Shown here piece by piece: positions 15,121-40,032 of a stretch of 59,367 nucleotides of DNA. Location of the stretch: positions 1 through 59,367 of the IMG/VR virus record IMGVR_UViG_3300037244_000010, one strand, 5' to 3'. The position numbers and the translations under genes were made by a program. The notes under the pieces are model-generated. The model ran no database searches. It was not told the origin of the DNA and saw only the letters and a program-made list of their open reading frames with translations. Within the stretch, counting starts at the first letter, position 1. Every line of letters begins with the position of its first letter. This DNA comes from a virus (Duplodnaviria; Caudoviricetes).

Positions 15121-15205
15121 TGTGGTAATATCTCAATCGACGGGTACAGAAACAATCTGGCTCGGACGTGACGGCTTATCAAAGCTCAATCGTCCGGGCC
15201 TTTTT
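15121..15205 (+). promoter_or_regulatory. Late leader element A (promoter + antiterminator/terminator switch)
   Basis: TGgTAATAT-7nt-GACGGGTAC-hairpin-terminator GGCTCGGAC/GTCCGGGCC-TTTTT; two further copies at 23545 and 39951. Confidence 0.8.
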
Positions 15206-15222
15206 GCGTTTACAGGAGCCAG

Positions 15223-16857
15223 ATGGACGATTTCAGCGTATTTCTCCCGATTGAAAAGGTGGACGCGCAGAGCGGAATGGTCTGGGGCTATGCCTCAACG
15301 CCATCGAAGGACCTGCAAGGGGAGATTGTTCCGCTGGACGCCATCAAGGCCGCCCTCCCCGACTACATGAAGTGGGCGAACATCAGGACCATGCACACCA
15401 ACAATGCCGTTGGCGTGACCAAAGAGGCCCACATTGACGCCAAAGGGCTCTACATCGGTGCCAAGATCGTTGATCCCGCCGCATGGAAACTGTGCAAGGA
15501 AGGCGTCTACAAGGGCTTCAGTATCGGCGGTTCCAAGCTGGAGAAGGTTGGCGATGTAGTAAAGGCGCTTTCCTTACGAGAGATCAGCCTCGTTGACCGG
15601 CCGGCGAACTCCGATTGCCGCATCGACGTATGCAAGATTGCCGGTGGACTCGCCTTTGGAGGGTCGATGGAGAATCAAACCAGTAACGAGACTTTGATGG
15701 AAAAGGCGCTTGACACGTTCCGGACGATTCTCGGAATGGGGAAGATTGCCCTTCCTGACCTTGCCAAAGCCGCACAGGACCCGAATCCGAGTCCTGTTGA
15801 GTCCGACGAACTGACCGCCGATGAGATGGCCACTCTGACCGCCAAGTTTGCGGACGGCGTTGACCTTGAGAAGCGGGAGTTCAGCGAAAAGGAACGGAAG
15901 CACCTCGGTAGCACTGGGGTAGCGCTTCCCGACGGTTCTTTCCCTGTCCAGACCGTGAAGGATCTTGAGAACGCCGTCCAAGCCTTTGGCCGCGCATCGG
16001 ACCCCGAGAAAGCCAAGGCTCACATTGTCACACGCGCGAAAGCGCTGAACGCAACACACCTTCTACCCGCCGATTGGCCGGGCAGCACCAAAGAGGAGAA
16101 AACAATCATGGCTATGGAACTCCAGAAGCGCTTCACGGCGGCAAGCAAGGCGGCCATAAAGAAGGCCGATGACCACATCAAGAAGGCTTCGGCCTCCCAC
16201 GGCAAGGCGGTCGACGAGATTGAAGCCCTCCACAAGTGCATGGGCAAGGCGGCCGACGGCGGCGATGAGTTCAAGAAGCACCTCACGGCGCTTTCGGGAC
16301 ACATGAACGACATTGCCGACCATCACGAACTGGCTCATGCCGCACTCGGCAAGGCTATGACCGGATGGGATGGAGAGAAGGCGGAAACCGACTTGGGCGA
16401 AGAGCCTGCTTCGGAGAACGTGGAAGAGCTTTCCCCCCGGCGCATGACTGAAGGCGAAGTTGAGGGAAACACCTTCCGCGGCGCTGGCGACTCGCCATAT
16501 TCGGCGTCTGCGATTGCGACGATGGTCAAGGCCGCTGTGGCCGAAGCTACCGCCCCGCTGATTGCCGACAACGCCTTCCTCAAGGGTCAGATGTCCGTGA
16601 TTGAGAATCAGCCCTCCGCGGGGCGCCGCCCGAAGCTGTTCGTTGCCAGCTCCACCGGCGATGTGTTCCCGGCCAGCGACGGCAAGGCCGACTTCAACCG
16701 GATGATCAACAAGTCGCTCTCCGAAGCTGACCCGAACGACCAGCGCAGTTCCGAGCAAGCCACGGCGCGCGCTTTCGGCCTGATGTGTACCCCCGGCAGC
16801 GGGTTTGCGAAGTCGATCAACGACCCCAACTTCAAGATTGACCTGGGCGGCAACTAG
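15223..16857 (+). CDS. Prohead protease (HK97-type) fused to scaffold region
   Basis: VWGYAST..DLQGE..IRTMH..GVYKGFSIGG..EISLVDRPAN; helical C-terminal part; directly before the capsid gene. Confidence 0.9.
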   Translation: MDDFSVFLPIEKVDAQSGMVWGYASTPSKDLQGEIVPLDAIKAALPDYMKWANIRTMHTNNAVGVTKEAHIDAKGLYIGAKIVDPAAWKLCKEGVYKGFSIGGSKLEKVGDVVKALSLREISLVDRPANSDCRIDVCKIAGGLAFGGSMENQTSNETLMEKALDTFRTILGMGKIALPDLAKAAQDPNPSPVESDELTADEMATLTAKFADGVDLEKREFSEKERKHLGSTGVALPDGSFPVQTVKDLENAVQAFGRASDPEKAKAHIVTRAKALNATHLLPADWPGSTKEEKTIMAMELQKRFTAASKAAIKKADDHIKKASASHGKAVDEIEALHKCMGKAADGGDEFKKHLTALSGHMNDIADHHELAHAALGKAMTGWDGEKAETDLGEEPASENVEELSPRRMTEGEVEGNTFRGAGDSPYSASAIATMVKAAVAEATAPLIADNAFLKGQMSVIENQPSAGRRPKLFVASSTGDVFPASDGKADFNRMINKSLSEADPNDQRSSEQATARAFGLMCTPGSGFAKSINDPNFKIDLGGN

Positions 16858-16923
16858 ACCGTCCAGCGCAGTTCACAGCGGTTTCAGTTTGTAGTCAGCA
16901 ACTCGGCAATAGGAGAATCTGAG

Positions 16924-18516
16924 ATGAATGAATTCGAGAAGTTCCTGCAAAGCGACACTTTCAAGCAGGCCATTGACGAGCGTGTTGGCACTCTCGCGAA
17001 GGCCGACACTGTTGACCAGAACACGGGGCTGGTGTGGTACGACCTGAGCCGCATCGTTCAGGAAATGCACCCGTTCAAGCAGTTGATTCCGCTGATCTCC
17101 AGCCTCCCCCGCGTCCCCGCCGATGGCGGCACTGCGCACCGTTGGAAGAGGGTCACCGGCATCAACGTCAACAACGTATCCATCGGCGTCCCCGAGGGCG
17201 AGCGCGCGGCCGCTTCCGCCATCACCGTTCAGGATCAACTGGCAAGCTACAAGACCATGGGCCTCGAAGGATCCGTGTCATGGGAAGCCCGTCTGGCCGC
17301 TCTCAACCTCAAGCCCGATGCTCAAGGCGTGACGATTCAGGCCACGCTGCAAGGTGTCATGGTGGGCGAAGAGCAGACGCTCATCGGCGGCAACGCCTCC
17401 ACCCCGCTGGGTATCACTCCCACGCCCACCTTGACCGCCGCCGGCACTACTTCGGCGCTTTCCAATGTTCCCTACTACCTCGTATGCGTTGCCCTCAGTC
17501 ATGCGGGATGGCGTACCGGCAGCATGGCCAACGGCATCCCCGGACAGGTCACGTTGACCAGCACCACGGGAACCATCACCAACGTGGGCGGCGGATCGGC
17601 TCAGCCTTCCGCGCAGGCCACCATCACCCCGACTGCCGGCCAGATCATCACCGCAACCGTTACGCCTGTGGTCAACGCCGTAGCCTACGCTTGGTACTTC
17701 GGGACCACGACCGGCGCGGCCCGGCTCCAGGGCATCACCACCACGAACCAGGCGAAGTTCAGCTCGGTCCCGTCCACCACCAATCAACTGATTACCGCTC
17801 TCCAGGTCAATGGTGCGTATCAGGACAACTCGACAAATACCCTGTTGCCCGATGGCATTCTCAGCCAGATCAACGGTTCCGTATCCGGTTCCGCCCCTGG
17901 CACCGCCATGGCAACCAACCCGAACCTGCCCGTTGTGGCCAGCGGGACTCTCGGATATGCGGGCTCCGGCGCGCTGATCTTCCAAGGCGCCAGCGGCAAC
18001 ACTGGCTTGACCATTGCCGGTACCAGCATCGTCGAGTTCGATGCCGTCTTCCAGGCTACCTACGACCAGTACAAGATTGGCTTTGACCGGATTCTGGTCA
18101 GCTCCACCGACCTGAACTCGAACATCGCTCAGTTCTTGAACACGGCCAGCACCAATAACAGTCTCCGCATGGTGTTTGAGGCGGACTCGGGCAGCGGATC
18201 TCAGATCGTTGCCGGGCGCGCGGTCAACGCCTACAAGAACAAGATCTACGGCAACACTCTGCCGATTGAAACGCATCCCAACCTGCCTCCGGGCACGATC
18301 CTCTTCTGGTCTGATCGCTCTCCGTACCCGCTGAGCGGTGTGGCCAACATCCTCGAAGCGCGTGTCCGTCAGGACTATGTGCAAGTGTCCTGGCCTCTGC
18401 GCACCCGGCGCAATGAGTACGGCGTGTATGTCGATGAGACATTCGCCCTGTACTTCGCCCCGGCCTTCGCCATCCTGACCAACATCAACCAGCCGACGGG
18501 AACCCAGACGTTCTAA
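16924..18516 (+). CDS. Major capsid protein with inserted beta-rich domain
   Basis: Follows protease; strong RBS and codon bias; HK97-like ends (LPRV, EEQTLIGGN, IETHPNLPPGTI, EYGVYVDETF..FAILTNI). Confidence 0.85.
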   Translation: MNEFEKFLQSDTFKQAIDERVGTLAKADTVDQNTGLVWYDLSRIVQEMHPFKQLIPLISSLPRVPADGGTAHRWKRVTGINVNNVSIGVPEGERAAASAITVQDQLASYKTMGLEGSVSWEARLAALNLKPDAQGVTIQATLQGVMVGEEQTLIGGNASTPLGITPTPTLTAAGTTSALSNVPYYLVCVALSHAGWRTGSMANGIPGQVTLTSTTGTITNVGGGSAQPSAQATITPTAGQIITATVTPVVNAVAYAWYFGTTTGAARLQGITTTNQAKFSSVPSTTNQLITALQVNGAYQDNSTNTLLPDGILSQINGSVSGSAPGTAMATNPNLPVVASGTLGYAGSGALIFQGASGNTGLTIAGTSIVEFDAVFQATYDQYKIGFDRILVSSTDLNSNIAQFLNTASTNNSLRMVFEADSGSGSQIVAGRAVNAYKNKIYGNTLPIETHPNLPPGTILFWSDRSPYPLSGVANILEARVRQDYVQVSWPLRTRRNEYGVYVDETFALYFAPAFAILTNINQPTGTQTF

Positions 18517-18537
18517 CCTACGGATGGATTTACAATG

Positions 18538-18578
18538 AGGCAGGCGGCGGCAACCAAACGCCTCCTGCCTTATTTTTT
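18538..18578 (+). terminator. Intrinsic terminator after the capsid gene
   Basis: aggcagg...cctgcct followed by tatttttt. Confidence 0.75.
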
Positions 18579-18590
18579 GGAGGGAATGAA

Positions 18591-18857
18591 ATGGTCAGAT
18601 TGCAGTGTCCTGAAGGAAATTCGCAGGTTTCTGTCGATGGCAGGAACTACCAAGCAGACGATACCGGGTTCGTGACCGTGCAAGAGGAGAGTGTCCAGAA
18701 GTTGCAAGCTATCGGCTTCAAGATTTCTCCAGTCAGCATGACGGTGAGTCAAGAGGACTTTGACGCCATCGCCGCGAACGCGAGAAATTTGAACTTGCCA
18801 GTACCGGGCGAAGTCAAGGTTGCGGGCAAGCAGAGCGCGCGCATCAAGGTGGAGTGA
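18591..18857 (+). CDS. Hypothetical virion-associated protein
   Basis: GGAGGG RBS; position after capsid. Confidence 0.7.
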   Translation: MVRLQCPEGNSQVSVDGRNYQADDTGFVTVQEESVQKLQAIGFKISPVSMTVSQEDFDAIAANARNLNLPVPGEVKVAGKQSARIKVE

Positions 18858-18861
18858 TCAG

Positions 18862-19695
18862 ATGCCTCATGCGGTTGATTTGACGACATTGACGGACCTG
18901 AAGAACTACATAAGCCCCGCTTTGGGCCAAACAACCGCATCAGATTCAGCACTGGCAAAGATCATCACTGCGGTATCGGACGGCATCAATCGCTATGTAT
19001 CGCGCACCCTGGCTGTGGGAATGTTTGCCGAGGTCCGGAATGGGAATGGCCGGCGCTCAATGCGTGCGCTGATCTATCCGGTCCTGAACGTATCATCTGT
19101 CGTACTGGCAGGATTCTACGGGGAAACAGGACACGTAATCCTCTCGTCTACGAACGGCTCAGCATCTCACCTGTCATGGGACAATTGGTTTATTAACCTA
19201 CGCGATGAGTGCTTCTGGGAAGGTCGTCAGAACATCACTTTGAACTACTCTGGTGGGTTCATGACTCCGGGGCAGCTTGGAGTCCTGACCTTGCCGGGAT
19301 GGACGGCGGCCGCAGTCACCCTGGCCAATGCGCAGATTCAGGTAGGCGGCTTCTACTATGAGGCTGTCAACGGCGGCACGACGGGCGCAACGGCGCCGGG
19401 AACATGGCTCCAGACGCGCAACTCGCTCACGAATGACAACGGCATCTTCTGGAGGTGCGAGGGCGCCATTCCAGTTTTGCCAAGCAATGCGAACATGGTG
19501 CCTGACGATTTCCAGATGGCCTGTATGCAGCAATCGGCGCTGCTGTTCAAGAACAGGACCCGCGTAGGCGATACGGGCTCTGGCGTGGGTCCTGATCGCA
19601 TCAACTATTTTTTGAAGGACGCGCATCCTTCCACAATCTCGATGCTTGACAAGCACCGCGAAGTTTTCCCAACTGACGGCATGGGAACCGTCTAA
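18862..19695 (+). CDS. Head-tail adaptor (gp6/gp15-like) with inserted Trp-rich module
   Basis: DLTTLTDLKNY..I..Y..R, GRQNITLNYSGG, VPDDFQMAC, MLDKHR. Confidence 0.8.
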   Translation: MPHAVDLTTLTDLKNYISPALGQTTASDSALAKIITAVSDGINRYVSRTLAVGMFAEVRNGNGRRSMRALIYPVLNVSSVVLAGFYGETGHVILSSTNGSASHLSWDNWFINLRDECFWEGRQNITLNYSGGFMTPGQLGVLTLPGWTAAAVTLANAQIQVGGFYYEAVNGGTTGATAPGTWLQTRNSLTNDNGIFWRCEGAIPVLPSNANMVPDDFQMACMQQSALLFKNRTRVGDTGSGVGPDRINYFLKDAHPSTISMLDKHREVFPTDGMGTV

Positions 19696-19718
19696 CTTAG
19701 CATAGGAGAATCATCACC

Positions 19719-20498
19719 ATGGCAAATCTCAATCTCCCTAGTCCCACCGCGCAGCAGAGCGACGTTGTTGCAGCGTTGCAGACCGCAGTGCAGGCGGTTC
19801 CGGTCACTCCCCCCGTGGTTGTGGTCACTCCGCTGGCGCCCGCTTCCACCACTCAAACCTACGCCGTTGTCGCCAAGATCGGGACTCAGACGGTTCCCGG
19901 CACGGCCACGATCACCACCGGCGCAGCCACGCTCTCGGCCGCAGCCTCCAATAACATCTCGTGGAACACCATTCCCGGCGCGGTATACGATGTGTACCGC
20001 ACGGCTGGCGGATCGACGCAGGGCAAGATTGCATCCAACCTGCCCGGCGTGACGCTGAACATTTACGGTGGCCCACAAGCCACGCTCCAGAGCGTTTCGC
20101 TGGTGGATACCGGTCTGTCCGCAGATGGCTCTACGGTCCCCGGATTCAACACCAGCGGGACCCTGGCGCATGGTTTGGTTGAGCCCGTCCAGGTTCTTGC
20201 GGCAAACGGCGCCATCTCGCTCGTGACGGGCAACGTGGTCATTACCAAGGGAAGCGTAGCGGCCATCACCCTGCCTCAGCCCATTGCAGGTTCTGCGCAG
20301 TCTGGTGGGCAGGACGGCGCATCGCTGACCGTCACGACCACCACAGCGTATGCGCACACCATCACCACGGCAGCGAGCGGCATCAACGGGACCCTGCATA
20401 TTGCCACGTTCACGGCGGGCGCGGGAAATTCCGTCACGTTCACGGCTTACAACGGAGAGTGGTACGCAACGACTCTCAGCGGCGTGGCCATCAGCTAA
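19719..20498 (+). CDS. Thr/Ala/Gly-rich virion (decoration-like) protein with FN3-like domain
   Basis: AGGAG RBS; TYAVVA..ISWNTIPGAVYDVYRT. Confidence 0.7.
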   Translation: MANLNLPSPTAQQSDVVAALQTAVQAVPVTPPVVVVTPLAPASTTQTYAVVAKIGTQTVPGTATITTGAATLSAAASNNISWNTIPGAVYDVYRTAGGSTQGKIASNLPGVTLNIYGGPQATLQSVSLVDTGLSADGSTVPGFNTSGTLAHGLVEPVQVLAANGAISLVTGNVVITKGSVAAITLPQPIAGSAQSGGQDGASLTVTTTTAYAHTITTAASGINGTLHIATFTAGAGNSVTFTAYNGEWYATTLSGVAIS

Positions 20499-20500
20499 GC

Positions 20501-21097
20501 ATGGACATCACCCTAGAAGGCGGCAAGCGGCTCTCTGCACGGTTGGATCATATGGGTCCTGCCATCAGAACGGCCGCGCGCCGCCAACTGGCAAACATCG
20601 GCGAGCACCTGGCTAGATACGGGCAACAGCACTTCAAGGAATCAGGACTCAAGAAACGATCTGGAAATCTCGCTGTATCTATGGCTGCATTGCCAGTTGA
20701 GGAAGACGAGCACAGCATTACTGGCGGAATGATGGTCGGCAAAGGACTCAAGTACGCAAAGGCCCAAGAATATGGTGCCGAGATCGATGCGCAATCAGGA
20801 CACATGTTGGCAATACCGATGGAAGACGCACTGACCCCCGCTGGAGTTGCAAGATTCGCACCTCGGGACGCGCAGTCTGAAGGCGCTTATGATCGAATCT
20901 TCTTCTCAAATGTGGGCAGCAACGTTTACATGTTCGGCGTGAAAGACGGCATCGTTCACCTGCTTTTCGTTCTCGTGCATCACGTTTCAATCCCGGCGCG
21001 GCCGTTTGCGGGTCCTGCTCTTGACGCCAACCGGGCATGGATTGAAGCGAGACTAAAACAAGCGGTCGATGAAGGAATCAAGGAGTCGGGAGAGTAG
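20501..21097 (+). CDS. Neck/tail completion protein (HK97 gp10/Mu gpG-like)
   Basis: RSGNLAVS, KYAKAQEYG, IPARPF motifs. Confidence 0.75.
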   Translation: MDITLEGGKRLSARLDHMGPAIRTAARRQLANIGEHLARYGQQHFKESGLKKRSGNLAVSMAALPVEEDEHSITGGMMVGKGLKYAKAQEYGAEIDAQSGHMLAIPMEDALTPAGVARFAPRDAQSEGAYDRIFFSNVGSNVYMFGVKDGIVHLLFVLVHHVSIPARPFAGPALDANRAWIEARLKQAVDEGIKESGE

Positions 21098-21099
21098 CC

Positions 21100-21678
21100 A
21101 TGTTCTACAACGATCCGAGAATCGGGATGGTTCAGGGAGATCTTCACAAGGCCGAAGACGAAGACGGCTCATGGATCACTATGAACGGGACGCATGTCCA
21201 TATGAAAGACGGAGAAGTGGATAAGGGGCCGCAGAAGGTCAAGGACCACGTCGCCGGCAAGAACGCAGAGAAAGCAAAATCTGCTGAGCCAAAAGCGATG
21301 CCGAAACTGCAAGGATCGGAAAAGCAGATAGCTTGGGCCGATAACATTAGAGATCGACGCATCAAAACCATCAATGATCTTCATCAAATCAACGTAAGAC
21401 GAGTAGAGAATGATCGCAAAGATGATGGCGGCCATACTCCATCTACCGATAGAATGCTAGAAGCGTCAGAGAGAGCGAAAGCGGACATGATGGATCATAT
21501 CGCTTCTCAAACCGACGCACACGAAATCATCGAGACAAGAGACAGGGCCCCCTATGACCGCATGATGTTTTCTCGGTTTAGTGAGCACTACAACGCCATC
21601 AAGAACGGGACCACTCCGAAATCATTTGGTGCCCAATACCCAAAAGGTGACCGAGAATTCATGCCGGAGTACGACTAA
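21100..21678 (+). CDS. Hypothetical protein, candidate internal head protein
   Basis: MFYNDPRIGM leader; WITMNGTHVHM motif; LQGSEKQIAWA..IR motif. Confidence 0.7.
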   Translation: MFYNDPRIGMVQGDLHKAEDEDGSWITMNGTHVHMKDGEVDKGPQKVKDHVAGKNAEKAKSAEPKAMPKLQGSEKQIAWADNIRDRRIKTINDLHQINVRRVENDRKDDGGHTPSTDRMLEASERAKADMMDHIASQTDAHEIIETRDRAPYDRMMFSRFSEHYNAIKNGTTPKSFGAQYPKGDREFMPEYD

Positions 21679-21680
21679 TG

Positions 21681-21902
21681 CTAAAATCTTTTGCCTTTAA
21701 TCCCGCTTGCAGGACCACTGTAAAGTACAGATCCGCGATCAGACATGACCTTGATGGAGATGTAATCTTTATCGCTGCATTGATGGATATTATCGGCCAG
21801 CACTTTGTGGAGTTGTGCGCGATCCGGAATCGAATCAATTATCGTGGATACTGGATAGTAGGCTGGGTAGGAGGGATCGTTGCGGGTAATAGTCAGCTTC
21901 AT
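21681..21902 (-). CDS. Moron-like small gene antisense within the structural operon
   Basis: GGAG RBS; own promoter TTGACA-16-TAAACT at 21978-21951. Confidence 0.65.
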   Translation of the reverse strand: MKLTITRNDPSYPAYYPVSTIIDSIPDRAQLHKVLADNIHQCSDKDYISIKVMSDRGSVLYSGPASGIKGKRF

Positions 21903-22012
21903 GTCTTTCTCCAACGCCTCTGGTTGAGGCTGTTTCTCAGGTACAAACTGAGTTTATCAAACCCTATGAGAATGTCAAGCAATTTGTTTATTAAATGCGT
22001 GGAGGCTTGCTG

Positions 22013-22483
22013 ATGGGAAACCCGCTCGGCCGCGAAACGATATATTCGGCATTCTTCACGCAGTTGAAGGCGGCGCTCGTGACCCCGACAAGCCCGTTCA
22101 ACTATGCTGGCCGTCGTCCGGTTCCTGATACCGACTTGGCTGAGGAGCAGTACCCCGCATTCTTCATGATGGAGGCCGGTGAAATCTATGACCGTAGCGT
22201 TCTATTTGCGCCTGCGCGGGTATCTCTACTCTGCACGATTTCAGTTGTTTCCCTTCAAGGCGAAGTTCCAGATGAGACCAATGTCTCAAATCTTAACAAC
22301 CTTGCGGATGCGGTTGAGAGCGCCATACAGGATTCGGTCGGGCCAACGGCGGACTTGACCCTGGGCGGACTGGTGCAAGATTGCTGGATCACGCATCGGA
22401 CCTTGACAATTACCGGCTCATCGTCGCAACGTCAGAGCAAACAGAACTTCGGCGTAGAAATCGTACTGCCGCATTCGAGGTGA
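22013..22483 (+). CDS. Tail terminator/neck-like protein
   Basis: GGAGG RBS; RETIY..L..YPAFF..LADAVESAI..TLGGLV. Confidence 0.7.
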   Translation: MGNPLGRETIYSAFFTQLKAALVTPTSPFNYAGRRPVPDTDLAEEQYPAFFMMEAGEIYDRSVLFAPARVSLLCTISVVSLQGEVPDETNVSNLNNLADAVESAIQDSVGPTADLTLGGLVQDCWITHRTLTITGSSSQRQSKQNFGVEIVLPHSR

Positions 22484-22486
22484 CAA

Positions 22487-22930
22487 ATGTTCTACGAAGA
22501 CTCCAGAATGGGAATGGCGAAGTCGGCAACCCCCAACCCCTACAACAATCACGGCGTGGGCTGCCCTTGTATTCTATGCGGCCAGACGCGCGGGATGGCG
22601 ATGGCAAAGCGGGACGCCGGTGCCAGCGAAGAGAAGATGCACCTGGCCATTGCCCATAGCCTGCACCACTCGCAGGCAAAGGGTGATCACGAGCGCAAGG
22701 CTTACGGCTGGGGAGGCGTTCATGATGGGCAGGCACCGCCCGAACTCACTGTCGAGCAGAAGGCCAAGCATCTGGAAGCGGCCGCCGCTCACGGGCAAGC
22801 TCAGGACCATTACCGTTCTGCGGCCAACTCCTACCGCGACAACCTGCCTAAGGGTGCCGCTGAGCATCAGAAGCTGGCAGAGGAAGCGGCGGCGCGGGCC
22901 GAGAAGCTGAGCGCAAAGGCGAACGCGTAA
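22487..22930 (+). CDS. His/Ala-rich hypothetical protein, candidate internal head protein
   Basis: GAGGTG RBS; MFYEDSRMGM leader shared with 21100..21678; HxxxCxCxxC. Confidence 0.7.
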   Translation: MFYEDSRMGMAKSATPNPYNNHGVGCPCILCGQTRGMAMAKRDAGASEEKMHLAIAHSLHHSQAKGDHERKAYGWGGVHDGQAPPELTVEQKAKHLEAAAAHGQAQDHYRSAANSYRDNLPKGAAEHQKLAEEAAARAEKLSAKANA

Positions 22931-23539
22931 ATGAGCGACCCAACATATGGCGCGCTCCCGGTACAGATCGACCCCACGGCATGGGGCGGCAGGACCAACA
23001 CGCCTACCGCGTCCCTTACCGTAGACTCGATTCAGAACCAGATAGCCGCCCAGCTTGTAGCGTTCTTCGCTTCCGGTTCGCTGGCAATTCCGGTCTACAT
23101 CTACCCGGCCTTCGATCTTGATACGTGGTGGGCTTCATCGGCGATTGCTTTCGTCCTGATTTCCTACAGCAACACGGGACTCTCGAAACCGCTTGCAACG
23201 TCGAGCATGGTCCAGGAGCGCACTCTCCAGTTCAAGGTCCACGTTGAAGCGCGCAAGACAGCGTGGAACCTCAGCGGGGTCGGCTCAGTCTACGCGCTCA
23301 TCGATGCAATTGAATCGGCGCTCGGGGGATTCCAGCCTACCGGATGCCGTCACGCCTACTTCACTGAGGAAAGATTCTCGGAACAGGACCCACAAGGGCG
23401 CGTCTGGCTGTACGACTTGACGTTCAACGTCCTCACCATTCGCCCGCGGCTGTTGCCCTCTTACGCGCTGGCGAACTTGCAGCAAGCGATTTTCAACGTT
23501 ACTCCGAGCGGAGATCAGATCATCGTTCCATCGGAGTAG
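22931..23539 (+). CDS. Mu gp37-like tail completion protein
   Basis: QERTLQF, YALIDAIESALGGFQP, VWLYDLTF; precedes sheath. Confidence 0.7.
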   Translation: MSDPTYGALPVQIDPTAWGGRTNTPTASLTVDSIQNQIAAQLVAFFASGSLAIPVYIYPAFDLDTWWASSAIAFVLISYSNTGLSKPLATSSMVQERTLQFKVHVEARKTAWNLSGVGSVYALIDAIESALGGFQPTGCRHAYFTEERFSEQDPQGRVWLYDLTFNVLTIRPRLLPSYALANLQQAIFNVTPSGDQIIVPSE

Positions 23540-23544
23540 CAACC

Positions 23545-23627
23545 TGATACACTTTGTATCGACGGGTACTCAAGCACTGAGGCTCGGATGGTTCTGGTTT
23601 GATAAGCCAGCACTGTCCGGGCCTTTT
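23545..23627 (+). promoter_or_regulatory. Late leader element B
   Basis: TGaTACACT-7nt-GACGGGTAC-hairpin-terminator GGCTCGGATGGT/ACTGTCCGGGCC-TTTT. Confidence 0.8.
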
Positions 23628-23656
23628 CACGTTTGGCGGCAAAGGAGCGGAGAAAT

Positions 23657-25966
23657 ATGAGTTTCTTCCATGGCATTACAGTAACCGAGGTCAACACCAA
23701 CGGCGTATCGATTCAGGTGGTCAACTCGGCAGTTATTGGCCTCATCGGCTCGGCTCCGCAGTGGTCGGCATCGTCTGGAGCAGGACCCGGAATCAACGTC
23801 CCGACGCTCATTCAGTCCGCCGCGCAGGGCTCGGCGTTTGGCAAGCAGATTCAGGGTTATACGATTCCTGAAGCCCTTGCGGACATTCAACTCCAGGGCG
23901 CGGGGGCCGTCATCGTCATCGACGTGTTCAACCCACTGCTCCATCAGAGCACCTTTGCGACCAATCCCTTGACAGGACCCGCATCCAACAGTGTGCCGGT
24001 AACACTCGGTCACATGGGCCTAATTGGTCCAGGCTTGCCCAACACTCCCCTTTCTACCGCTTCGGTTGACACCGTGGCGCAGGCGGGCGGCGCGGCAAGC
24101 CACAGTTATGCAACAGGCGACACGATCACCCTCGCGGGTGGAACGGCGTCAACTCCCGCGGTCCTGACCGTGGCGACAACGAAGCTCGTATCGCTGGCGG
24201 TGAATGCCCCCGGCGGCGCTACATCGCACAACTACGCAGCCGGCGACAGCGTTACGCTGGCAGGCGGAACCGCTTCGGTTGCTCCTCAACTCACCGTTAC
24301 CTCCACTCAGGTTACGGGCGCAACGGTTGCGATCGGTGGAAGCGGCGGCACGAACGGGACTCAAACTGTGACCGGAACGACTGGCACCGGGACACGCTTT
24401 CAGGCTTCTGTGACTGTGGCCGGTGGCGCGATTACCGCGGTCCTGTCGATCTCTTTGGCTGGCTCCTACTCCATAAACCCCACGGCTCCCGCTCTTGAGC
24501 CTGTGACGGGCGGTGGACTGGTTGGCGCCGAACTGGCAATCACTCTGGGCGTGGCCACCTTCAACATCGTCAACGCGGGTAGCTTCACCGTGAACAGTGC
24601 CGCGCTGACACAGGCAAGCTCAACAGGACTCGGCACCGGGGCAACCTTCAACCTTGGCGTCTTTGGAGTCCTGACGGCCACGGTATCCACTGCGGGCAGC
24701 TACTCGGCTGTCCCGGCGAACCCTGTAGCTCAGGCCAGCACCTCGGGCAGCGGCACCGGTGCCACTTTCAATGTGACCTTTGCGGGGCCGCCTACCACTG
24801 TCGTGGTCAAGAACCAGGCCGGCTCGACGACCTACGTCGAGGGCACTGATTACACCATCGATTACGTGAACGGCCTGCTCTACACCAAGAGCGGCGGCGC
24901 AATCACCTCGGCGCAGGCATTGCAGGTCTCCGGCGCCTACTGCGACCCGTCCAAGGTTGCATATACCGACATCATCGGGACCGTGACCGGAAGCACCTAT
25001 ACCGGCATCCAAGCCTTGCAGACCACCTTCCAGACGATGGGCCTGTTCGCCAAGCTGCTCATCACCCCAACCTTCTACGATGCGTCAACCAGCGCCAACC
25101 TGCTGGCCATGGCGACGAAGCTCCAGGCCATCTCGTTCACCGACGCGCCCCCGAACACGACTGTGGCAACCGCCATCGCCAACCGCGGAGCCGCCGGCAA
25201 TGCCTTCAATCAGGCCAGCGACAGGCTCGCGCTCACCTTCCCTTGGCAGTTGAAGACTCCCACCGCCATCATCCCCACTGGCGTTGTGGTGAGCGCGCAG
25301 GGAAACATCGGCTATACGTCCGTGACTGGCACCGTGGACACGCCGTATAGCACGTGGGTAGCTGGCGCTACGGCAGCCAGCGATATCGCCAATGGCTTCT
25401 GGTTCTCGCCGTCGAACACGGTCATCAACGGTATTCTGGGTCCCGATGTCAGCCTATACATGAGCGCCTACGACCCGACTTCAGACACGAACGCGCTGAA
25501 CGCGGCTGGCATCATGACGGTCTTCAACGGCTTCGGTACCGGCTACAGGACATGGGGCAACCGCGCATCGAGCTTCCCGTCGAGCGGCGCAGTGACCACG
25601 TTTATCGCCGTTCGCAGGACCCTCGACGTTGTGGAGCAGAGCATCCAGTACAGTTCGCTGCCCTTCGCCGATAAGCCCATCACCAACGGTCTCATCAATT
25701 CGATCTTGCAGAGCGTGAATGGGTTTATCAACTCGCTCATCCAGCAGGGCGCATTGATTGCCGGAAGCGCGGTCACCTACAACCCGGTTGACAACCCCCC
25801 TGCGAGTCTGGCGAATGGGCAACTCACGTTTGAAGTAAGCGTGATGCCGCCGCCGCCGGCCGAGCAGATCATTTACAACTTCTCCATCAACACCAGCCTG
25901 CTTGCGAACCTCGGGGCATCCGTAACGAGCACCAGCACAACCAGCAACTTCAACGTGACCGCATAA
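23657..25966 (+). CDS. Tail sheath protein with large insertion
   Basis: MSFFHGITV..SAVIGLIGSAP; C-terminal GFWFSPSN, LNAAGI, GYRTWGNR, FIAVRRT (P2 FI-like). Confidence 0.95.
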   Translation: MSFFHGITVTEVNTNGVSIQVVNSAVIGLIGSAPQWSASSGAGPGINVPTLIQSAAQGSAFGKQIQGYTIPEALADIQLQGAGAVIVIDVFNPLLHQSTFATNPLTGPASNSVPVTLGHMGLIGPGLPNTPLSTASVDTVAQAGGAASHSYATGDTITLAGGTASTPAVLTVATTKLVSLAVNAPGGATSHNYAAGDSVTLAGGTASVAPQLTVTSTQVTGATVAIGGSGGTNGTQTVTGTTGTGTRFQASVTVAGGAITAVLSISLAGSYSINPTAPALEPVTGGGLVGAELAITLGVATFNIVNAGSFTVNSAALTQASSTGLGTGATFNLGVFGVLTATVSTAGSYSAVPANPVAQASTSGSGTGATFNVTFAGPPTTVVVKNQAGSTTYVEGTDYTIDYVNGLLYTKSGGAITSAQALQVSGAYCDPSKVAYTDIIGTVTGSTYTGIQALQTTFQTMGLFAKLLITPTFYDASTSANLLAMATKLQAISFTDAPPNTTVATAIANRGAAGNAFNQASDRLALTFPWQLKTPTAIIPTGVVVSAQGNIGYTSVTGTVDTPYSTWVAGATAASDIANGFWFSPSNTVINGILGPDVSLYMSAYDPTSDTNALNAAGIMTVFNGFGTGYRTWGNRASSFPSSGAVTTFIAVRRTLDVVEQSIQYSSLPFADKPITNGLINSILQSVNGFINSLIQQGALIAGSAVTYNPVDNPPASLANGQLTFEVSVMPPPPAEQIIYNFSINTSLLANLGASVTSTSTTSNFNVTA

Positions 25967-25976
25967 GGAGCGCACC

Positions 25977-26498: not shown

Positions 26499-26501
26499 TA
26501 A

Positions 26502-26798
26502 GTGGCAGCCAACGGATATGCACCATCCGCTTCTCAGCAAGTCGTAGCAAGCGGAATAGCACAGACAGTCGCCAATCCAGGCACAGGATCAACGCTGCGT
26601 CTTGCCAATGTGGGAGCAGAGCCTGTGTATGTCGCACTGGGCGCATCGAGTCCTGTTGCGGTCACTCCCCAGACGGGACTCGCGATCTTGCCCGGCGCGC
26701 CTGCTGAGTTTCTGACGGCGGTATCAAACGGGTTCATCAGCTTCGTGACTGACGGATGCACTTTCAATGTTCGGCTCAACATCTCGCAAGGGACGTAG
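26502..26798 (+). CDS. Hypothetical virion protein
   Basis: ORF between tube and chaperone; GGAGG RBS. Confidence 0.65.
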   Translation: MAANGYAPSASQQVVASGIAQTVANPGTGSTLRLANVGAEPVYVALGASSPVAVTPQTGLAILPGAPAEFLTAVSNGFISFVTDGCTFNVRLNISQGT

Positions 26799-26843
26799 AG
26801 GCCGGCCACAACCATAGCCAAGCACTGGCGTGAGGTGATTCAA

Positions 26844-29139: not shown

Positions 29140-29717
29140 TGTTCGCATCTTTCGGCCCCATCTCGTTTCAGCCTCTCGCCAGCCCGACAAAGCTGGAGAT
29201 AGAGAAAAAGTACCACTACGAAGCAATCAACGTGATAGGGGCGCCTCCTGTGTTGCAGTGGATCTACGACAATCTTCGCCACGTTGAAATTTCGATCTAC
29301 CTTCACAACTTCTGGTGCAAACCGCAGACGGCCATCAACGCTCTGACGCAGCTTGCCGACTTCCACGTTCCGCAGCAGTTCGTCTTTGGCAACAAGAACA
29401 TCCTCGGGACATTCGTCATCTCAAACTACCGGCTCAAGCAGCGGTGGATGGCAGATGACGGCTCTGTAATCGCTGCGGAGATGGATCTTGAACTGACCGA
29501 GTACGTCGCGCCCTCCACGCTCCAGAGCAACACCATGACGGTCGGGACCATCGGCAACTCAACAATCAACACCAATCCTCCAGGGCTCACCACTTCACAG
29601 AGCGCGGCGGCCGGATCGACGCTTGTCGTGAGTCCTGCCACAGCTTCCCCCTCGGGAATACCGGCACAGACGCCGTATACGAATGTCTCGTTGAGCACGA
29701 TTGCGAGGGCTGCCTAA
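29139..29717 (+). CDS. P2 gpU-like tail protein
   Basis: MFASFGPISF..PVLQWI..LGTFVI..LELTEY. Confidence 0.8.
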   Translation: MFASFGPISFQPLASPTKLEIEKKYHYEAINVIGAPPVLQWIYDNLRHVEISIYLHNFWCKPQTAINALTQLADFHVPQQFVFGNKNILGTFVISNYRLKQRWMADDGSVIAAEMDLELTEYVAPSTLQSNTMTVGTIGNSTINTNPPGLTTSQSAAAGSTLVVSPATASPSGIPAQTPYTNVSLSTIARAA

Positions 29718-30005
29718 ATGCCGAATGTCGTGATACCAAACGGTGGAAGCGGGGTCCTGACAGCGTCACTCGTTACCACCTACGTCAACCCGTCCGCACC
29801 GTCATCGGGAATCATCTACGTGTCCAAAGGGGAACGCTGGGATGCGATAGCGTACAAGATGTACGGAGACTCTACGCAGGTTGAGCCGCTGATTCAGAAC
29901 AACCCTGGCATTCCGATTGGCGACTATGTGGCGCAAGGCGTTCAGGTCTTTGTCCCGCTGATCACACCAGCGACCAGCACAACCAGTTCGACGCCGTGGA
30001 ACTAA
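29718..30005 (+). CDS. P2 gpX-like (LysM-like) tail protein
   Basis: GERWDAIAYKMYGD..LIQNNP..PW. Confidence 0.85.
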   Translation: MPNVVIPNGGSGVLTASLVTTYVNPSAPSSGIIYVSKGERWDAIAYKMYGDSTQVEPLIQNNPGIPIGDYVAQGVQVFVPLITPATSTTSSTPWN

Positions 30006-34002: not shown

Positions 34003-34021
34003 TCCACAAGGAGACTTCAGC

Positions 34022-38374: not shown

Positions 38375-38376
38375 AC

Positions 38377-38649: not shown

Positions 38650-38814
38650 TGGCACAGAACGAAGGCTAGGAGGCCTCATGGCAACACCAATTCCTTGTGC
38701 AGCCACCACACCAAAACCAATCCCCAATAAGTAGCCGCAGTTGTCCGCACTGCGGTGCCTGAGCAGGACCGGCATCTACGATAGAGAGATAGGCCAAAGG
38801 AGGGCCTGAGCAAC

Positions 38815-39948
38815 ATGGCAAACAATCTCAGGCCTGCGTCATCGATCAACGACCTCAGAACTCAAGCGCACATGCAACTATCTGCACGACTTGAGTCGCT
38901 CGACCTGACGCCCCTGCTTATCAGGACTCTAGGAAACAACCTCCCGGCATCCATCTTGCCCTACTTGACATGGGAACTAGACATGATGGTGCCGAGTGTC
39001 CCGATGCAGCAGCTAGGGGCTACGGCGTTAGATGTTATCCAGAACGCCCTACCTCTGCATCGCATCAGTGGCACTCCTGGCGCAATCATCCATGCTCTTG
39101 CCTTGTGCGGCATAACAGCAACGATCTTAGAGGGTCAAGACTCATGGGGAGGTACTTCATATCCAGCCAGTCAAGGATGGGCTGTCTTCAGGGTGGGATT
39201 TACCGGTGCTGGGATGGCCCCCGCTGGACTAATCAACGGAACCAATATGCACTTTGTTCTTCCTGAGACGCCAAACGGTAACTCGCTCCGAGTCTTCTAT
39301 AACGGACTCCTTCTGCGGCCGACGACAGACTATGGAGTTTCAGGACTCAACATGACCACGGCATTCGCGCCGGCTACGAACGCGACGCTCTTGATTGTGT
39401 TTCGCAGCGGCACATCCATCCCACTATATTTCGATGCCATTGTGCCAACAGTCTCAGGCTCAAATCTAACTTTTCCTGAGACGCCGGTCAGCATTGAATT
39501 GTATAAGAATGGCATATTGCAGAGTGGGGGATTGAATGCAAGTCAGCTTTCCGCACTGGAGATCATCGTCAACTTCTTCAAGCCAGCGCGGTGCCTATTG
39601 GATTCCGTTTATGCCTTAGGTGGCAAGGATTACTCGATTTCGGGGAACACGGCGGCGCTGACGGTTGCTCCGAAGTCTACCGACTCGTTCATTGCGTGGG
39701 GAACTTACGCGGGCACAGGCACCGCGCCGAACTACGCTGACTATGTGACGCCGACAGGACTCGTAAACGGCTCCAATACCGTGTTTACCCTTCCCCAAGC
39801 TCCGAGTCCTGCTGCCAGTCTCAGGCTGTACCGAGGATGGCAAGTACTGAAGCCGGGAGGGGTTGACTTCACCTTGAGCGGCGCAACGATCACCTACACC
39901 ATCGCCCCGGCGCCCACGGCCACGCATCTAGCCTTCTACCGCTACTAG
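38815..39948 (+). CDS. P2 gpI-like baseplate/tail protein with added repeat modules
   Basis: LDLTPLL..LPYLTWELD..LHRISGTPGAI; modules NGxN..F.LP..P..SLR...NG....DY..SG. Confidence 0.8.
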   Translation: MANNLRPASSINDLRTQAHMQLSARLESLDLTPLLIRTLGNNLPASILPYLTWELDMMVPSVPMQQLGATALDVIQNALPLHRISGTPGAIIHALALCGITATILEGQDSWGGTSYPASQGWAVFRVGFTGAGMAPAGLINGTNMHFVLPETPNGNSLRVFYNGLLLRPTTDYGVSGLNMTTAFAPATNATLLIVFRSGTSIPLYFDAIVPTVSGSNLTFPETPVSIELYKNGILQSGGLNASQLSALEIIVNFFKPARCLLDSVYALGGKDYSISGNTAALTVAPKSTDSFIAWGTYAGTGTAPNYADYVTPTGLVNGSNTVFTLPQAPSPAASLRLYRGWQVLKPGGVDFTLSGATITYTIAPAPTATHLAFYRY

Positions 39949-39950
39949 GG

Positions 39951-40032
39951 TGCGGTACAATCGGCATTGACGGGTACAGAACCAGTCTGACTCGCCACAT
40001 GACCTTGATAAGAGGATCAGTGGCGAGTCTTT
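39951..40032 (+). promoter_or_regulatory. Late leader element C
   Basis: TACAAT-7nt-GACGGGTAC-hairpin-terminator GACTCGCCAC/GTGGCGAGTC-TTTCACTTT. Confidence 0.8.

What the first reader, a model, noticed from the sequence alone, without database searches (positions are those of the whole stretch)
15121..40032. Three covarying promoter-antiterminator-terminator RNA leaders head the capsid, tail and fibre/lysis operons: candidate new late-gene antitermination system
Seen: elements at 15121-15205, 23545-23627 and 39951-40032 share one exact architecture. Each has a -10 hexamer (TAATAT, TACACT, TACAAT), exactly 7 nt, invariant GACGGGTAC, then a 4-bp hairpin with an ANCAN loop showing compensatory change (CAGA-AACAA-TCTG; CTCA-AGCAC-TGAG; CAGA-ACCAG-TCTG). 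A 10-12 bp terminator stem with U-tract follows, then the RBS. The 5' CGGGU can pair with (G/A)CUCG, which is also the 5' arm of the terminator, so the bulged-A hairpin and the terminator are mutually exclusive. Established: BglG/LicT RAT elements use this logic, and lambda late control uses promoter-short RNA-terminator with Q. No Q, Ogr or Mu C homolog is recognisable here. Inference: a protein-stabilised RNA switch coordinates all late operons.
Basis: partly seen in the sequence, partly recalled or inferred. Interest (0 to 1): 0.92.

Follow-up and report, generated by a model that had tools for sequence, protein, structure and literature searches.

The report
Late-operon leader RNA switch in phage
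Three late operons of an uncultured peat phage each begin with a promoter, a small conserved RNA hairpin and a terminator that compete for the same bases, which looks like an on/off switch for making virus particles whose trigger is still unknown.

Summary
The window is a complete 59,367-bp phage genome. Three leaders (15126-15205, 23548-23627, 39956-40038) share one layout: a -10 hexamer, 7 nt, GACGGGTAC, a 5'-proximal hairpin, then a long terminator hairpin with a U-tract, then the RBS. The hairpin is P1 (4-5 bp), a bulged A, P2 (4 bp) and an ANCAN pentaloop. The 3' arm of P1 is the first 4-5 nt of the terminator's 5' arm.

Related phages down to about 60% capsid identity keep this layout with different sequences. 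In 12 distinct leaders, 94 of 96 cells pair (65% when shuffled). All 8 pairs show double changes, and 0 of 500 shuffles reach the observed score. G.U outnumbers A.C 11 to 1, so this is a + strand RNA structure.

The terminator fold is 2.5-9 kcal/mol more stable than the hairpin-forced fold, so read-through should need a stabilising factor. No such factor was identified. There is no Q, N, NusG, sigma or CAT match among the ORFs scanned. Candidates are two uncharacterised genes that lie upstream of the capsid leader (13506-13832 and 11918-12451) and a phage cold-shock protein.

Rfam has no match, and three literature searches found no described equivalent. No transcription start or termination data exist. 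Verdict: a new variant of leader terminator/antiterminator control. The structure is shown; the regulation is inferred.

The parts
15123..15131 (+). E1 promoter: extended -10 (TG-n-TAATAT). The predicted start is about 15138-15140.
   Evidence: Orthologous leaders in G003, G005 and L154 add a -35 TTGACT or TTGACA at 17-18 nt. No start-site data exist.
15141..15164 (+). E1 5'-proximal hairpin: P1 CGGGU/GCUCG, bulged A 15146, P2 CAGA/UCUG, loop AACAA.
   Evidence: covariation; model hit at 30.5 bits, E 1e-4.
15159..15205 (+). E1 intrinsic-terminator-like hairpin (10-bp stem plus an inner hairpin with TTATCAA at its tip) and T-tract. Its 5' arm contains the P1 3' arm.
23545..23553 (+). E2 promoter: extended -10 (TG-n-TACACT).
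23563..23586 (+). E2 hairpin: P1 CGGGU/GCUCG, bulged A 23568, P2 CUCA/UGAG, loop AGCAC.
   Evidence: 28.2 bits.
23581..23627 (+). E2 terminator-like hairpin (13-bp stem, inner hairpin with TTGATAA at its tip) and T-tract.
39956..39961 (+). E3 -10 hexamer TACAAT.
39971..39994 (+). E3 hairpin: P1 CGGGU/ACUCG, bulged A 39976, P2 CAGA/UCUG, loop ACCAG.
   Evidence: 24.4 bits.
39989..40038 (+). E3 terminator-like hairpin (10-bp stem, inner hairpin with TTGATAA at its tip) and an interrupted T-tract.
14528..14560 (+). Conventional terminator that closes the upstream operon. In relatives without ORF 14546-15109 it sits directly before the E1 promoter.
13506..13832 (+). Candidate factor 1: a small basic protein of an uncharacterised family (predicted beta-beta-alpha-beta-beta fold). 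It is always encoded upstream of E1 on the same strand.
   Evidence: In L154/L189 its stop codon overlaps the -35 of the leader.
11918..12451 (+). Candidate factor 2: a two-domain helical protein with a hypervariable linker. It is present in all six complete or near-complete genomes that carry leaders.
57668..57871 (-). Phage cold-shock-domain protein (candidate general RNA chaperone/antiterminator). It is found only in G000-G002.
   Evidence: phrog_729, E 3e-22; CSD, E 5.5e-31.
15223..18516 (+). First genes controlled by E1: prohead protease/scaffold-like gene (15223-16857) and the putative major capsid protein (16924-18516).
   Evidence: The capsid assignment rests on position and conservation only.
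23657..25966 (+). First gene after E2: tail sheath.
   Evidence: Phage_sheath_1, E 1.4e-13.
40052..41406 (+). First genes after E3: a 94-aa Cys-rich protein and a tail-fibre-like protein.
   Evidence: phrog_4209, E 4.8e-6; conserved in G003-G005.
18533..18578 (+). Plain intrinsic terminator after the capsid gene, inside the E1 operon. It has no P1-P2 hairpin before it.

Best explanation
Each of the three elements is a host-sigma70-type promoter followed by a 65-75-nt leader RNA that can fold in two ways.

Fold 1 is the terminator. By default a long hairpin plus U-tract forms and stops transcription before the first late gene.

Fold 2 is the antiterminator. A small hairpin at the very 5' end of the transcript (P1, bulged A, P2, A-rich pentaloop) holds the first 4-5 nt of the terminator's 5' arm. 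The remaining hairpin then ends 9-11 nt short of the U-tract, and RNA polymerase reads on into the capsid, tail and fibre genes.

The terminator fold is more stable, so I infer that a trans-acting factor made earlier in infection clamps the 5' hairpin. It would most likely recognise the shape, the bulged A and the loop rather than the stem sequences.

Shown: the sequence architecture, the covariation of P1 and P2 on the + strand RNA, and the overlap with the terminator.
Inferred: the transcription start, termination, the switch, the need for a factor, and its identity.
For: Architecture:
- It is the same at all three sites.
- It is kept in G001-G005 and in contigs L133, L146, L154, L155 and L162, with different sequences.

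Covariation, 12 distinct leaders in a gapless alignment:
- 97.9% of 96 cells pair, against 65.4% in shuffles.
- 8 of 8 pairs have changes on both sides.
- 0 of 500 shuffles reach the paired-cell or covariation score.
- Sliding the partner drops pairing to 20-54%.
- G.U cells number 11 against 1 A.C, so the + strand RNA is the structured molecule.

Within one species-level clade the E2 flanks are identical, while the roughly 55 nt between them are rewritten. P1, P2 and the terminator are all kept.

Overlap and energetics:
- The P1 3' arm lies inside the terminator stem in every leader folded.
- Among the 9 of 12 leaders folded to the U-tract, the terminator fold wins by 2.5-9 kcal/mol. The other 3 were cut short by my script.
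- The 5' hairpin alone is worth -6 to -11 kcal/mol.

Promoter:
- There is a TAnnnT hexamer with conserved spacing.
- TGn precedes it in 2 of the 3 window copies.
- TTGACT or TTGACA lies at 17 nt in G003 E1 and G005 E1.
- A separate terminator closes the upstream operon.

Specificity:
- The hairpin model finds 14 sites at E<=0.0085 in 412 kb, all of them leaders. The next hit is at E 0.37.
- The plain terminator after the capsid gene has no such hairpin. This argues for local rather than processive action.

Position: the elements precede protease/capsid, sheath and fibre-like genes.
Against: - No factor was identified. None of the 50 ORF translations sent to Pfam, the 30 sent to PHROGs or the 10 sent to NCBIfam matched an antiterminator, sigma, NusG/KOW or CAT RNA-binding family. 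Not every ORF was scanned.
- The best-placed candidate (13506-13832) is missing from G005 (97% complete), which still has an E1 leader. Its distant relatives in L177 and L194 have no leader downstream.
- The cold-shock protein is confined to G000-G002.
- 3 of 15 leaders (G003 E1, L146 E1, L155 E1) fit only with a 3-bp P2, a 4-nt loop or a mismatch. I left them out of the count.
- One contig (L139) has U in place of the bulged A.
- The 12 counted leaders were picked because they fit one geometry, and paralogues and orthologues are not independent.
- There are no start-site or 3'-end data. The RNA runs are kept as contigs, which cannot show ends.
- The conserved TTGATAA/TTATCAA word at the terminator tips occurs in either orientation. 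That points to a DNA-level reader which this model does not explain.
Confidence: 0.5

Rival explanations
1. The leaders are fixed partial terminators, not a switch. They insulate the operons and set a constant fraction of read-through. The 5' hairpin only tunes terminator efficiency or protects the 5' end of the mRNA. Timing comes from promoter activity or genome copy number.
For: - No factor was found.
- The hairpin starts 2-6 nt from the predicted 5' end, where stem-loops are known to stabilise mRNAs (recalled).
- The phage also uses a plain attenuating terminator after the capsid gene.
- The energy gap between the two folds is only 2.5-9 kcal/mol, so kinetic partitioning without a factor is conceivable.
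Against: - A stabilising 5' hairpin need not overlap the terminator. Yet the overlap is kept through every sequence change.
- The bulged A and loop positions 1, 3 and 4 are conserved while the stems vary. This looks like a recognition surface.
- Placing a strong terminator 65 nt after a promoter, with no means of relief, is wasteful.
Confidence: 0.15
2. Antitermination needs no protein and depends on dose. G-rich abortive or short transcripts from the late promoters carry the same first bases as the P1 5' arm. They pair in trans, and the 5' arm pairs in cis, with the C+U-rich 5' half of the terminators. Read-through then rises as template copies and promoter firing increase.
For: - There is a precedent in T7. 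Abortive transcripts from phi10 hybridise to the 5' half of Tphi and suppress termination (PMC2952870, abstract read).
- The first 9 transcribed bases are identical in all three window leaders, although P2 and the terminators differ.
- G004's two leaders also share GACAGC.
- The P1 5' arm lies at about +3 to +7, within the range of abortive products.
Against: - The cis arm is already present at 1:1, so trans oligomers add little.
- The model does not need P2, the bulged A or the conserved loop, yet these covary or are conserved.
- G003's two leaders have different P1 sequences.
- The T7 case uses T7 RNA polymerase, not the host enzyme.
Confidence: 0.1
3. The 5' hairpin is a processive antitermination signal. 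It would be a boxB-like site for an N-like arginine-rich protein, or a put-like RNA that binds RNA polymerase. It makes the polymerase terminator-resistant for the whole operon rather than acting by alternative folding.
For: - A 4-bp stem with an A-rich pentaloop close to a promoter recalls boxB (recalled).
- Arginine-rich small ORFs exist (12813-12938, conserved in G001 and G002; 49888-50073).
- The operons are 8-16 kb long.
Against: - The conserved overlap with the terminator is unnecessary for a processive mechanism.
- No boxA-like sequence was seen (by eye).
- The arginine-rich ORFs are not found in G003-G005.
- An unprotected terminator sits inside the E1 operon.
- Rfam gives no match even at E<=10 on E1.
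Confidence: 0.1
4. The control acts on DNA. A Q-like or other DNA-binding protein loads at the promoter-proximal region or at the TTGATAA/TTATCAA word inside the terminator palindrome. The RNA pairing is secondary.
For: - 'Promoter, short leader, terminator' is the layout of Q-controlled late operons (recalled; also the BrrG/BaGTA preprint 10.1101/2024.11.20.624540, abstract and outline read).
- The tip word occurs in either orientation at 3 of 3 leaders in each of G000-G002 and 2 of 2 in G003. It also lies upstream of the -35 in G003 E1.
- It is about 8-fold over-represented genome-wide.
- Candidate 11918-12451 has a C-terminal three-helix domain.
Against: - Compensatory changes and the 11:1 excess of G.U over A.C show selection on the RNA, not on a DNA site.
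- No -10-like pause element is conserved in the initially transcribed region. The loop plus the next base reads AACAAT in E1 but AGCACT and ACCAGT in E2 and E3.
- G004, G005 and L154 leaders lack the tip word.
- No Q family was detected.
Confidence: 0.07

Closest known systems
BglG/SacY/LicT antiterminators with their RAT leader RNA (features recalled, not tested against a model)
   Same: A short imperfect hairpin with a bulge lies just upstream of an intrinsic terminator and overlaps it. The terminator is the more stable fold, and read-through requires the small hairpin to be stabilised.
   Different: - No CAT or PRD protein was found among the ORFs scanned.
- The hairpin is 22-24 nt with a single bulged A and a pentaloop, and has no RAT consensus.
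- It sits at the extreme 5' end of the transcript.
- It is repeated at three phage late operons rather than at a sugar operon.
Lambdoid Q proteins at PR'-qut-tR', and the Q21-like BrrG of the Bartonella gene transfer agent (preprint 10.1101/2024.11.20.624540, abstract and outline read)
   Same: An apparently constitutive promoter is followed within about 70 nt by a terminator ahead of the late genes. A candidate regulator gene lies directly upstream of the promoter (13506-13832; in L154 its stop overlaps the -35).
   Different: - Q loads on DNA at a sigma-dependent pause and acts processively from one site.
- Here the conserved feature is a covarying RNA hairpin that overlaps the terminator.
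- There are three sites.
- No Q family or pause element was found.
Lambda/P22 N protein with the nut boxB hairpin (recalled)
   Same: A small stem with an A-rich pentaloop in nascent RNA near a promoter, used by a phage to pass terminators.
   Different: - There is no boxA and no N homologue.
- The loop starts with A, not G.
- The hairpin has a lower stem and a bulged A.
- The overlap with the terminator implies local, not processive, action.
HK022 put RNAs (recalled)
   Same: A cis-acting structured RNA just downstream of phage promoters that suppresses termination.
   Different: - put is about 65-70 nt with two stem-loops.
- It acts on RNA polymerase without alternative folding.
- It serves the early operons.
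T7 abortive transcripts acting on Tphi (PMC2952870, abstract read)
   Same: A G-rich initially transcribed sequence is complementary to the C+U-rich 5' half of a terminator that gates late genes.
   Different: - In T7 the RNA acts in trans, the terminator is far from the promoter, and the enzyme is T7 RNA polymerase.
- Here the complementary segment is in cis and is part of a conserved hairpin.
Coat-protein operator hairpins of MS2 and PP7 (recalled; a structural analogy only)
   Same: A stem with a single bulged purine on the 5' side, a short upper stem and a small A-containing loop. It is read by shape plus a few bases.
   Different: Those are translational operators of RNA phages. No coat-like protein is present here.

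Membership tests
Intrinsic (factor-independent) terminator | G+C-rich hairpin followed directly by a U-tract | tested here: met
   -27 to -32 kcal/mol, z -3.4 to -5.9. T-tracts are TTTTT, TTTT and TTTCACTTT. Termination itself was not measured. The simple scanner missed the sites because their loops exceed 8 nt.
Leader terminator/antiterminator switch (attenuator) | An alternative helix that uses part of the terminator stem and is supported by covariation | tested here: met
   (P1: 4 of 4 pairs with double changes). (overlap in every leader folded).
Leader terminator/antiterminator switch (attenuator) | A signal (protein, ligand, ribosome or tRNA) that shifts the balance between the folds | tested here: inconclusive
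   No factor was identified. Candidates only.
BglG/LicT-RAT system | CAT RNA-binding domain protein with PRD domains | tested here: not met
   No such Pfam hit in the 50 ORF translations scanned. Not all ORFs were scanned.
BglG/LicT-RAT system | RAT consensus sequence and structure | not tested
   No RAT model was at hand. The comparison was made from memory only.
Lambdoid Q antitermination | A Q protein family member encoded upstream of the late promoter | tested here: not met
   Pfam, PHROGs and NCBIfam give no hit for 13102-15109 or the other ORFs scanned. Foldseek on the models of 13536-13832 and 11918-12451 gives no hit at E<0.001.
Lambdoid Q antitermination | A -10-like sigma-dependent pause element in the initially transcribed DNA | tested here: not met
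   By eye. The only -10-like hexamer (AACAAT in the E1 loop) is not conserved in E2 or E3.
Lambda N / nut | boxA plus a boxB hairpin with a GNRA-like pentaloop, and an N protein | tested here: not met
   The loops are ANCAN-like and none starts with G. No boxA was seen by eye. No N family was hit.
Any Rfam family (including known phage and antitermination RNAs held there) | A match to a curated covariance model | tested here: not met
   0 matches at gathering score over the window. 0 matches at E<=10 on 15100-15230. E2 and E3 were not run at the loose threshold.

The most novel reading that the evidence does not exclude
This is a previously undescribed phage late-gene control system. A novel small protein is encoded directly upstream of the first late promoter. 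The candidate is the 13506-13832 family, which has 327 representative clusters, no Pfam family and a beta-grasp-like predicted fold. The protein would bind a 5'-terminal bulged-A pentaloop hairpin in nascent RNA and so block formation of an overlapping terminator at several late operons at once. In effect this would be a RAT-like, RNA-read counterpart of Q.
Probability: 0.2. Interest if true: 0.8.

Novelty: new variant of a known kind. Interest (0 to 1): 0.62.

Why it matters
Control of phage late genes by antitermination is textbook, but the known forms are DNA-loaded (Q) or processive RNA-loaded (N, put).

Here a covarying RNA hairpin overlaps a terminator, is repeated at the head, tail and fibre operons, and is conserved across a clade of uncultured soil phages. 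That would add a local, attenuator-type solution to the list.

It also provides three things:
- a compact, testable RNA element of about 70 nt;
- a short list of unknown proteins to assay;
- a possible orthogonal switch for synthetic biology.

It further shows that such leaders can be rewritten rapidly within a species while keeping both folds.

Tried and rejected
**RNA evidence**
- One search found 6 metatranscriptome runs of peat (X15-X20) that hold 27-44% of the sampled words of 15000-24900.
- laid X15-X18 on 10001-30000. All four runs are kept as contigs. They cannot show starts, ends or strand, and DNA may be present in them.
- Summed contig depth is higher over 15337-18671 than over 10001-14669. 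The runs were chosen with 15000-24900, and the tool warns against ranking by depth.
- The listed pieces begin at 15238, 15277, 15306, 23600 and 23626, but only 32 of 429 pieces were listed.
- I draw nothing from any of this.

**Factor hunt**
- The ESM Atlas gave nothing usable for 11861-12451 (best score 0.79) or for P0069.
- A profile of the 11918-12451 family against PDB sequences gave only E 1.1.
- Foldseek on both models gave no hit at E<0.001. The beta-grasp likeness to protein L/G is generic.
- A profile of the 13506 family found nothing in 5 Acetobacteraceae MAGs with leaderless related prophages, nor in 401 sampled Alphaproteobacteria. These are empty answers, not proof of absence.
- The metagenome scan gave 17 loci, mostly of lineages already seen.

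**Relatives and cultured phages**
- Acetobacteraceae MAG prophages with 54-57% capsid identity have no leader.
- The cultured-phage collection has no DNA match. Its only capsid relatives are two Brevundimonas phages at 37% identity.

**Alignment and model**
- MAFFT alignments A4 and A5 misplaced gaps and were not used for counts. I used fixed 22-nt and 28-nt windows anchored on P2 instead.
- The strict structure scanner found 11 leader places and 4 other places in 490,578 bases on both strands. It missed G003 E1, G004 E3 and G005 E1, which I found by eye.
- In one search my U-tract rule cut three leaders short (G003 E3, G005 E1, L162 E2). Their energies are not quoted.

**Ideas rejected**
- IHF site at the tip word: the 3' TTR part is missing (by eye).
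- boxA: absent.
- Ribosome-mediated attenuation: the upstream stop codons lie 23-24 nt before P1.

**Literature**
- Three searches found no description of such a leader. This covers only the held open-access library.
- Supplementary files were not consulted.

Full report
**What the window is.** The window is a whole IMG/VR virus record of 59,367 bp with direct terminal repeats and 56% G+C. Its runs come from peat and permafrost metagenomes.

The gene map comes from Pfam and PHROGs:
- + strand: Dps-like ferritin (2863), small and large terminase (3843, 4406), an RHH protein (6535), portal (7344) and a MuF-like protein (9116).
- About 5 kb of small unknown ORFs follows.
- Then come prohead protease/scaffold (15223), the putative capsid protein (16924), neck genes, sheath (23657), tail genes, a 1450-aa fibre (34022) and a P2-I-like baseplate protein (38815).
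- Next are a Cys-rich 94-aa protein (40052), a fibre-like protein (40195), unknown ORFs and a Strawberry-notch-like helicase (43986).
- − strand: a helicase-methylase (46869-49490), DnaB (50024), HNH, an SMC-like ATPase, an exonuclease-like protein, a cold-shock protein (57668-57871) and an AntA-like antirepressor (1039-1851).

No cultured phage matches at DNA level. The capsid protein is 37% identical to that of two Brevundimonas phages.

Searches confirm the three elements base for base; coordinates are in the parts list. The exact 9-mer GACGGGTAC occurs three times only, all on the + strand and all intergenic. Two of the three -10 hexamers are preceded by TGn. The terminator hairpins are strong (-27 to -32 kcal/mol; 0 of 200 shuffles fold as well) and are followed by T-tracts. 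Rfam has no match at gathering score, nor at E<=10 on E1.

**Relatives.**
- An exact-pattern scan of IMG/VR returned 60 loci. Of these, 45 are near-identical copies of E1 (19), E2 (10) or E3 (16), and 15 are chance matches inside genes.
- Searches with the sheath and capsid proteins brought more distant relatives. I fetched five near-complete genomes, G001-G005.
- G001 and G002 belong to the same genus-level group and carry three leaders each.
- G003, G004 and G005 have 61-68% capsid identity. They have no leader before the sheath gene.
- They do have diverged leaders before the protease/capsid genes. G003 and G004 also have one before the homologue of 40052.
- Further variants come from contigs L133, L139, L146/L150, L154/L174, L155, L162 and L169.
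- Prophage-like relatives in Acetobacteraceae MAGs, at 54-57% capsid identity, have no leader.

**Covariation.** The P1 and P2 sequences seen across the variants are:

| Helix | 5' arm / 3' arm variants |
|---|---|
| P1 | CGGGU/GCUCG, CGGU/GCCG, CGGG/CCCG, CAGC/GCUG, GAGC/GCUC, GAGU/GCUC |
| P2 | CAGA, CUCA, CAGG, CCAA, CAAA, CUUG, GCGG, CUAG, UCCG, CUGA, each with its complement |

- I counted 12 distinct leaders that share one geometry, in a gapless alignment anchored on P2.
- 94 of 96 cells form standard pairs (97.9%, against 65.4% in shuffles).
- All 8 pairs show changes on both sides.
- 0 of 500 shuffles reach the observed paired fraction or covariation score. Sliding the 3' partner by 1-3 columns gives 20-54% pairing. 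My own script gave the same result, with 0 of 2000 shuffles.
- Eleven cells are G.U and one is A.C, so selection acts on the + strand RNA and not on a DNA palindrome.

The count has three limits:
- The 12 leaders were chosen because they fit the geometry.
- Three irregular leaders (G003 E1, L146 E1, L155 E1) were left out. They do fit looser versions, with a 3-bp P2, a 4-nt loop or an A.C mismatch.
- Paralogues and orthologues are not independent events.

Invariant or nearly invariant unpaired positions are the bulged A, loop position 1 (A), position 3 (C or A) and position 4 (A, once U). One contig, L139, has U in place of the bulged A.

Within the window's own species-level clade, the first 25 nt and the last roughly 30 nt of E2 are identical. 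The roughly 55 nt between them are rewritten in four versions, and each version keeps P1, P2 and the terminator.

A covariance model of the hairpin finds 14 sites at E<=0.0085 in 412 kb. All are leaders, and the next hit is at E 0.37.

**Anatomy and energetics.**
- The P1 3' arm is always the start of the terminator's 5' arm.
- For the nine leaders folded to their U-tract, the terminator fold is 2.5-9 kcal/mol better than the best fold with P1-P2 forced.
- In the forced fold the remaining hairpin ends 9-11 nt before the U-tract.
- The 5' hairpin alone is worth -6 to -11 kcal/mol.
- So termination should be the default, and a modest stabilisation of the 5' hairpin would flip the outcome.
- P1 begins 2-6 nt after the predicted start, so the hairpin is 5'-terminal.

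**Promoter reading.**
- A TAnnnT hexamer sits at a conserved distance in most leaders (in L154 and L155 the hexamer or its distance from P1 differs). G003 E1 and G005 E1 add TTGACT or TTGACA at 17 nt, and L154 adds TTGACA at 17-18 nt.
- A conventional terminator (14528-14554) closes the upstream operon.
- In relatives that lack ORF 14546-15109, that terminator lies about 30 nt before the E1 -10.
- G004 and L146 also have a terminator just upstream of their E1 promoter.
- So E1 heads its own transcription unit. E2 and E3 follow the stop codon of the preceding gene directly, and their terminators would also end the preceding operon.
- A plain strong terminator follows the capsid gene (18533-18578) with no P1-P2 before it. 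This fits local rather than processive relief.

**Search for the factor.**
- No antiterminator, sigma, NusG or CAT family was hit in the ORFs scanned (50 in Pfam, 30 in PHROGs, 10 in NCBIfam). The tail genes and several small ORFs were not scanned.
- Comparison of six genomes leaves few non-structural genes shared by all leader-bearing phages.
- The 11918-12451 family is in all six genomes and in L146 and L150. It has two helical domains joined by a hypervariable linker and no structural or sequence relative of known function.
- The 13506-13832 family is in G000-G004, L146, L150, L154 and L155. It always lies upstream of E1 on the same strand, and in L154/L189 its stop codon overlaps the -35. 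That position recalls Q before PR'.
- This second family is widespread: 327 representative clusters at E<=0.001. It has no Pfam family and is predicted as beta-beta-alpha-beta-beta, with only generic beta-grasp likeness.
- Against it: G005 lacks the family, and two distant members (L177, L194) are not followed by a leader.
- The phage cold-shock protein and an arginine-rich 41-aa ORF occur only in G000-G002.

**What it most likely is.** It is a leader terminator/antiterminator switch at three late promoters. The 5' hairpin acts as antiterminator, and an unidentified trans-acting factor reads its shape, bulged A and loop.

The logic is that of BglG/LicT-RAT. The genomic layout (promoter, short leader, terminator, late genes, candidate regulator just upstream) is that of Q. 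Membership in either family fails on the protein and sequence tests.

The rivals are:
- a fixed partial terminator tuned by a 5' stabiliser;
- dose-dependent relief by abortive transcripts, as at T7 Tphi (PMC2952870, abstract);
- processive N- or put-like action;
- a DNA-level reader.

**Unexplained.**
- The terminator tips carry TTGATAA or its complement TTATCAA, in either orientation, in 3 of 3 leaders of each of G000-G002 and 2 of 2 of G003.
- The word occurs 31 times in the window, against 3.5 expected. It is the most over-represented 7-mer in G003 and G004.
- It clusters at 10448-10608 and also lies at 43969. This suggests a DNA-binding protein that I could not identify.

**Limits.**
- There are no start, end or strand data. 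The metatranscriptome runs are contigs only.
- The host is unknown.
- Comparisons with RAT, Q, N, put and MS2/PP7 are from memory, apart from the two papers named above.

Noticed in passing
window, genome-wide; for example 10448, 10537, 10608, 15176, 23599, 40005, 43969: The 7-mer TTGATAA/TTATCAA occurs 31 times against 3.5 expected under an order-2 model. It is also the top over-represented 7-mer in relatives G003 and G004. It sits at the tip of every leader terminator in G000-G003 in either orientation, and it clusters in a divergent promoter-like region near 10.5 kb. It may be the site of an unknown DNA-binding protein.
   Followed up: partly
window, genome-wide (82 sites, for example 609, 1064, 2288 ... 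59158): TCAGGAC/GTCCTGA occurs 82 times against about 9 expected. There are 42 copies on + and 40 on -, spread evenly about every 700 bp, often followed by T/C then C. It is not among the six most over-represented 7-mers in G003-G005. Its function is unknown.
   Followed up: partly
window 18533-18578: A strong intrinsic terminator (about 15 bp, then UUAUUUUUU) lies directly after the putative capsid gene and inside the E1 operon. It has no antiterminator hairpin. It probably sets the ratio of capsid to neck proteins.
   Followed up: partly
window 14546-15109: This 187-aa ORF with a CPNCG motif is inserted between the upstream operon's terminator and the E1 promoter. It is present in G000 and G003 (72% identity) but absent from G001, G002, L148, L169 and L170. 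It looks like a mobile 'moron'.
   Followed up: partly
window 46869-49490 (-): An 873-aa helicase plus N6/N4 DNA methylase fusion, conserved in G003 and G004. The + strand ORFs at 47154-49187 that a GC3-based gene call preferred are probably not genes.
   Followed up: partly
window 57668-57871 (-): The phage encodes a 67-aa cold-shock-domain protein in its early-side block (CSD, E 5.5e-31). It is present only in G000-G002.
   Followed up: partly
window 23561-23627 compared with L104:14768-14877, L108:2210-2319 and L162:12756-12865: Within one species-level clade the E2 leader exists in at least four versions. They have identical flanks but rewritten P1, P2 and terminator. This suggests cassette exchange or rapid compensatory evolution.
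   Followed up: partly
L154:5187-5330 (the same sequence in L174, L189 and L190): This relative's capsid leader carries two terminator hairpins in tandem after the 5' hairpin.
   Followed up: no
window 2863-3408: The phage carries a Dps/ferritin-like gene (Ferritin, E 7.7e-25) just upstream of the terminase genes. It is shared with G001 and G002 only.
   Followed up: no
window 9734-9928: A 64-aa basic ORF that follows the MuF-like gene in all six genomes. By eye its C-terminus recalls the YezD/DUF2292 pattern (recalled, no Pfam hit).
   Followed up: no
L115:6123-6708 (G004) and L112 region upstream of 7255 (G003): Different regulator-like ORFs sit between the 13506 homologue and the capsid leader. 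By eye they are LuxR-type and XRE-type HTH proteins in G004 and a Crp-like protein in G003. They were not scanned against any library.
   Followed up: no
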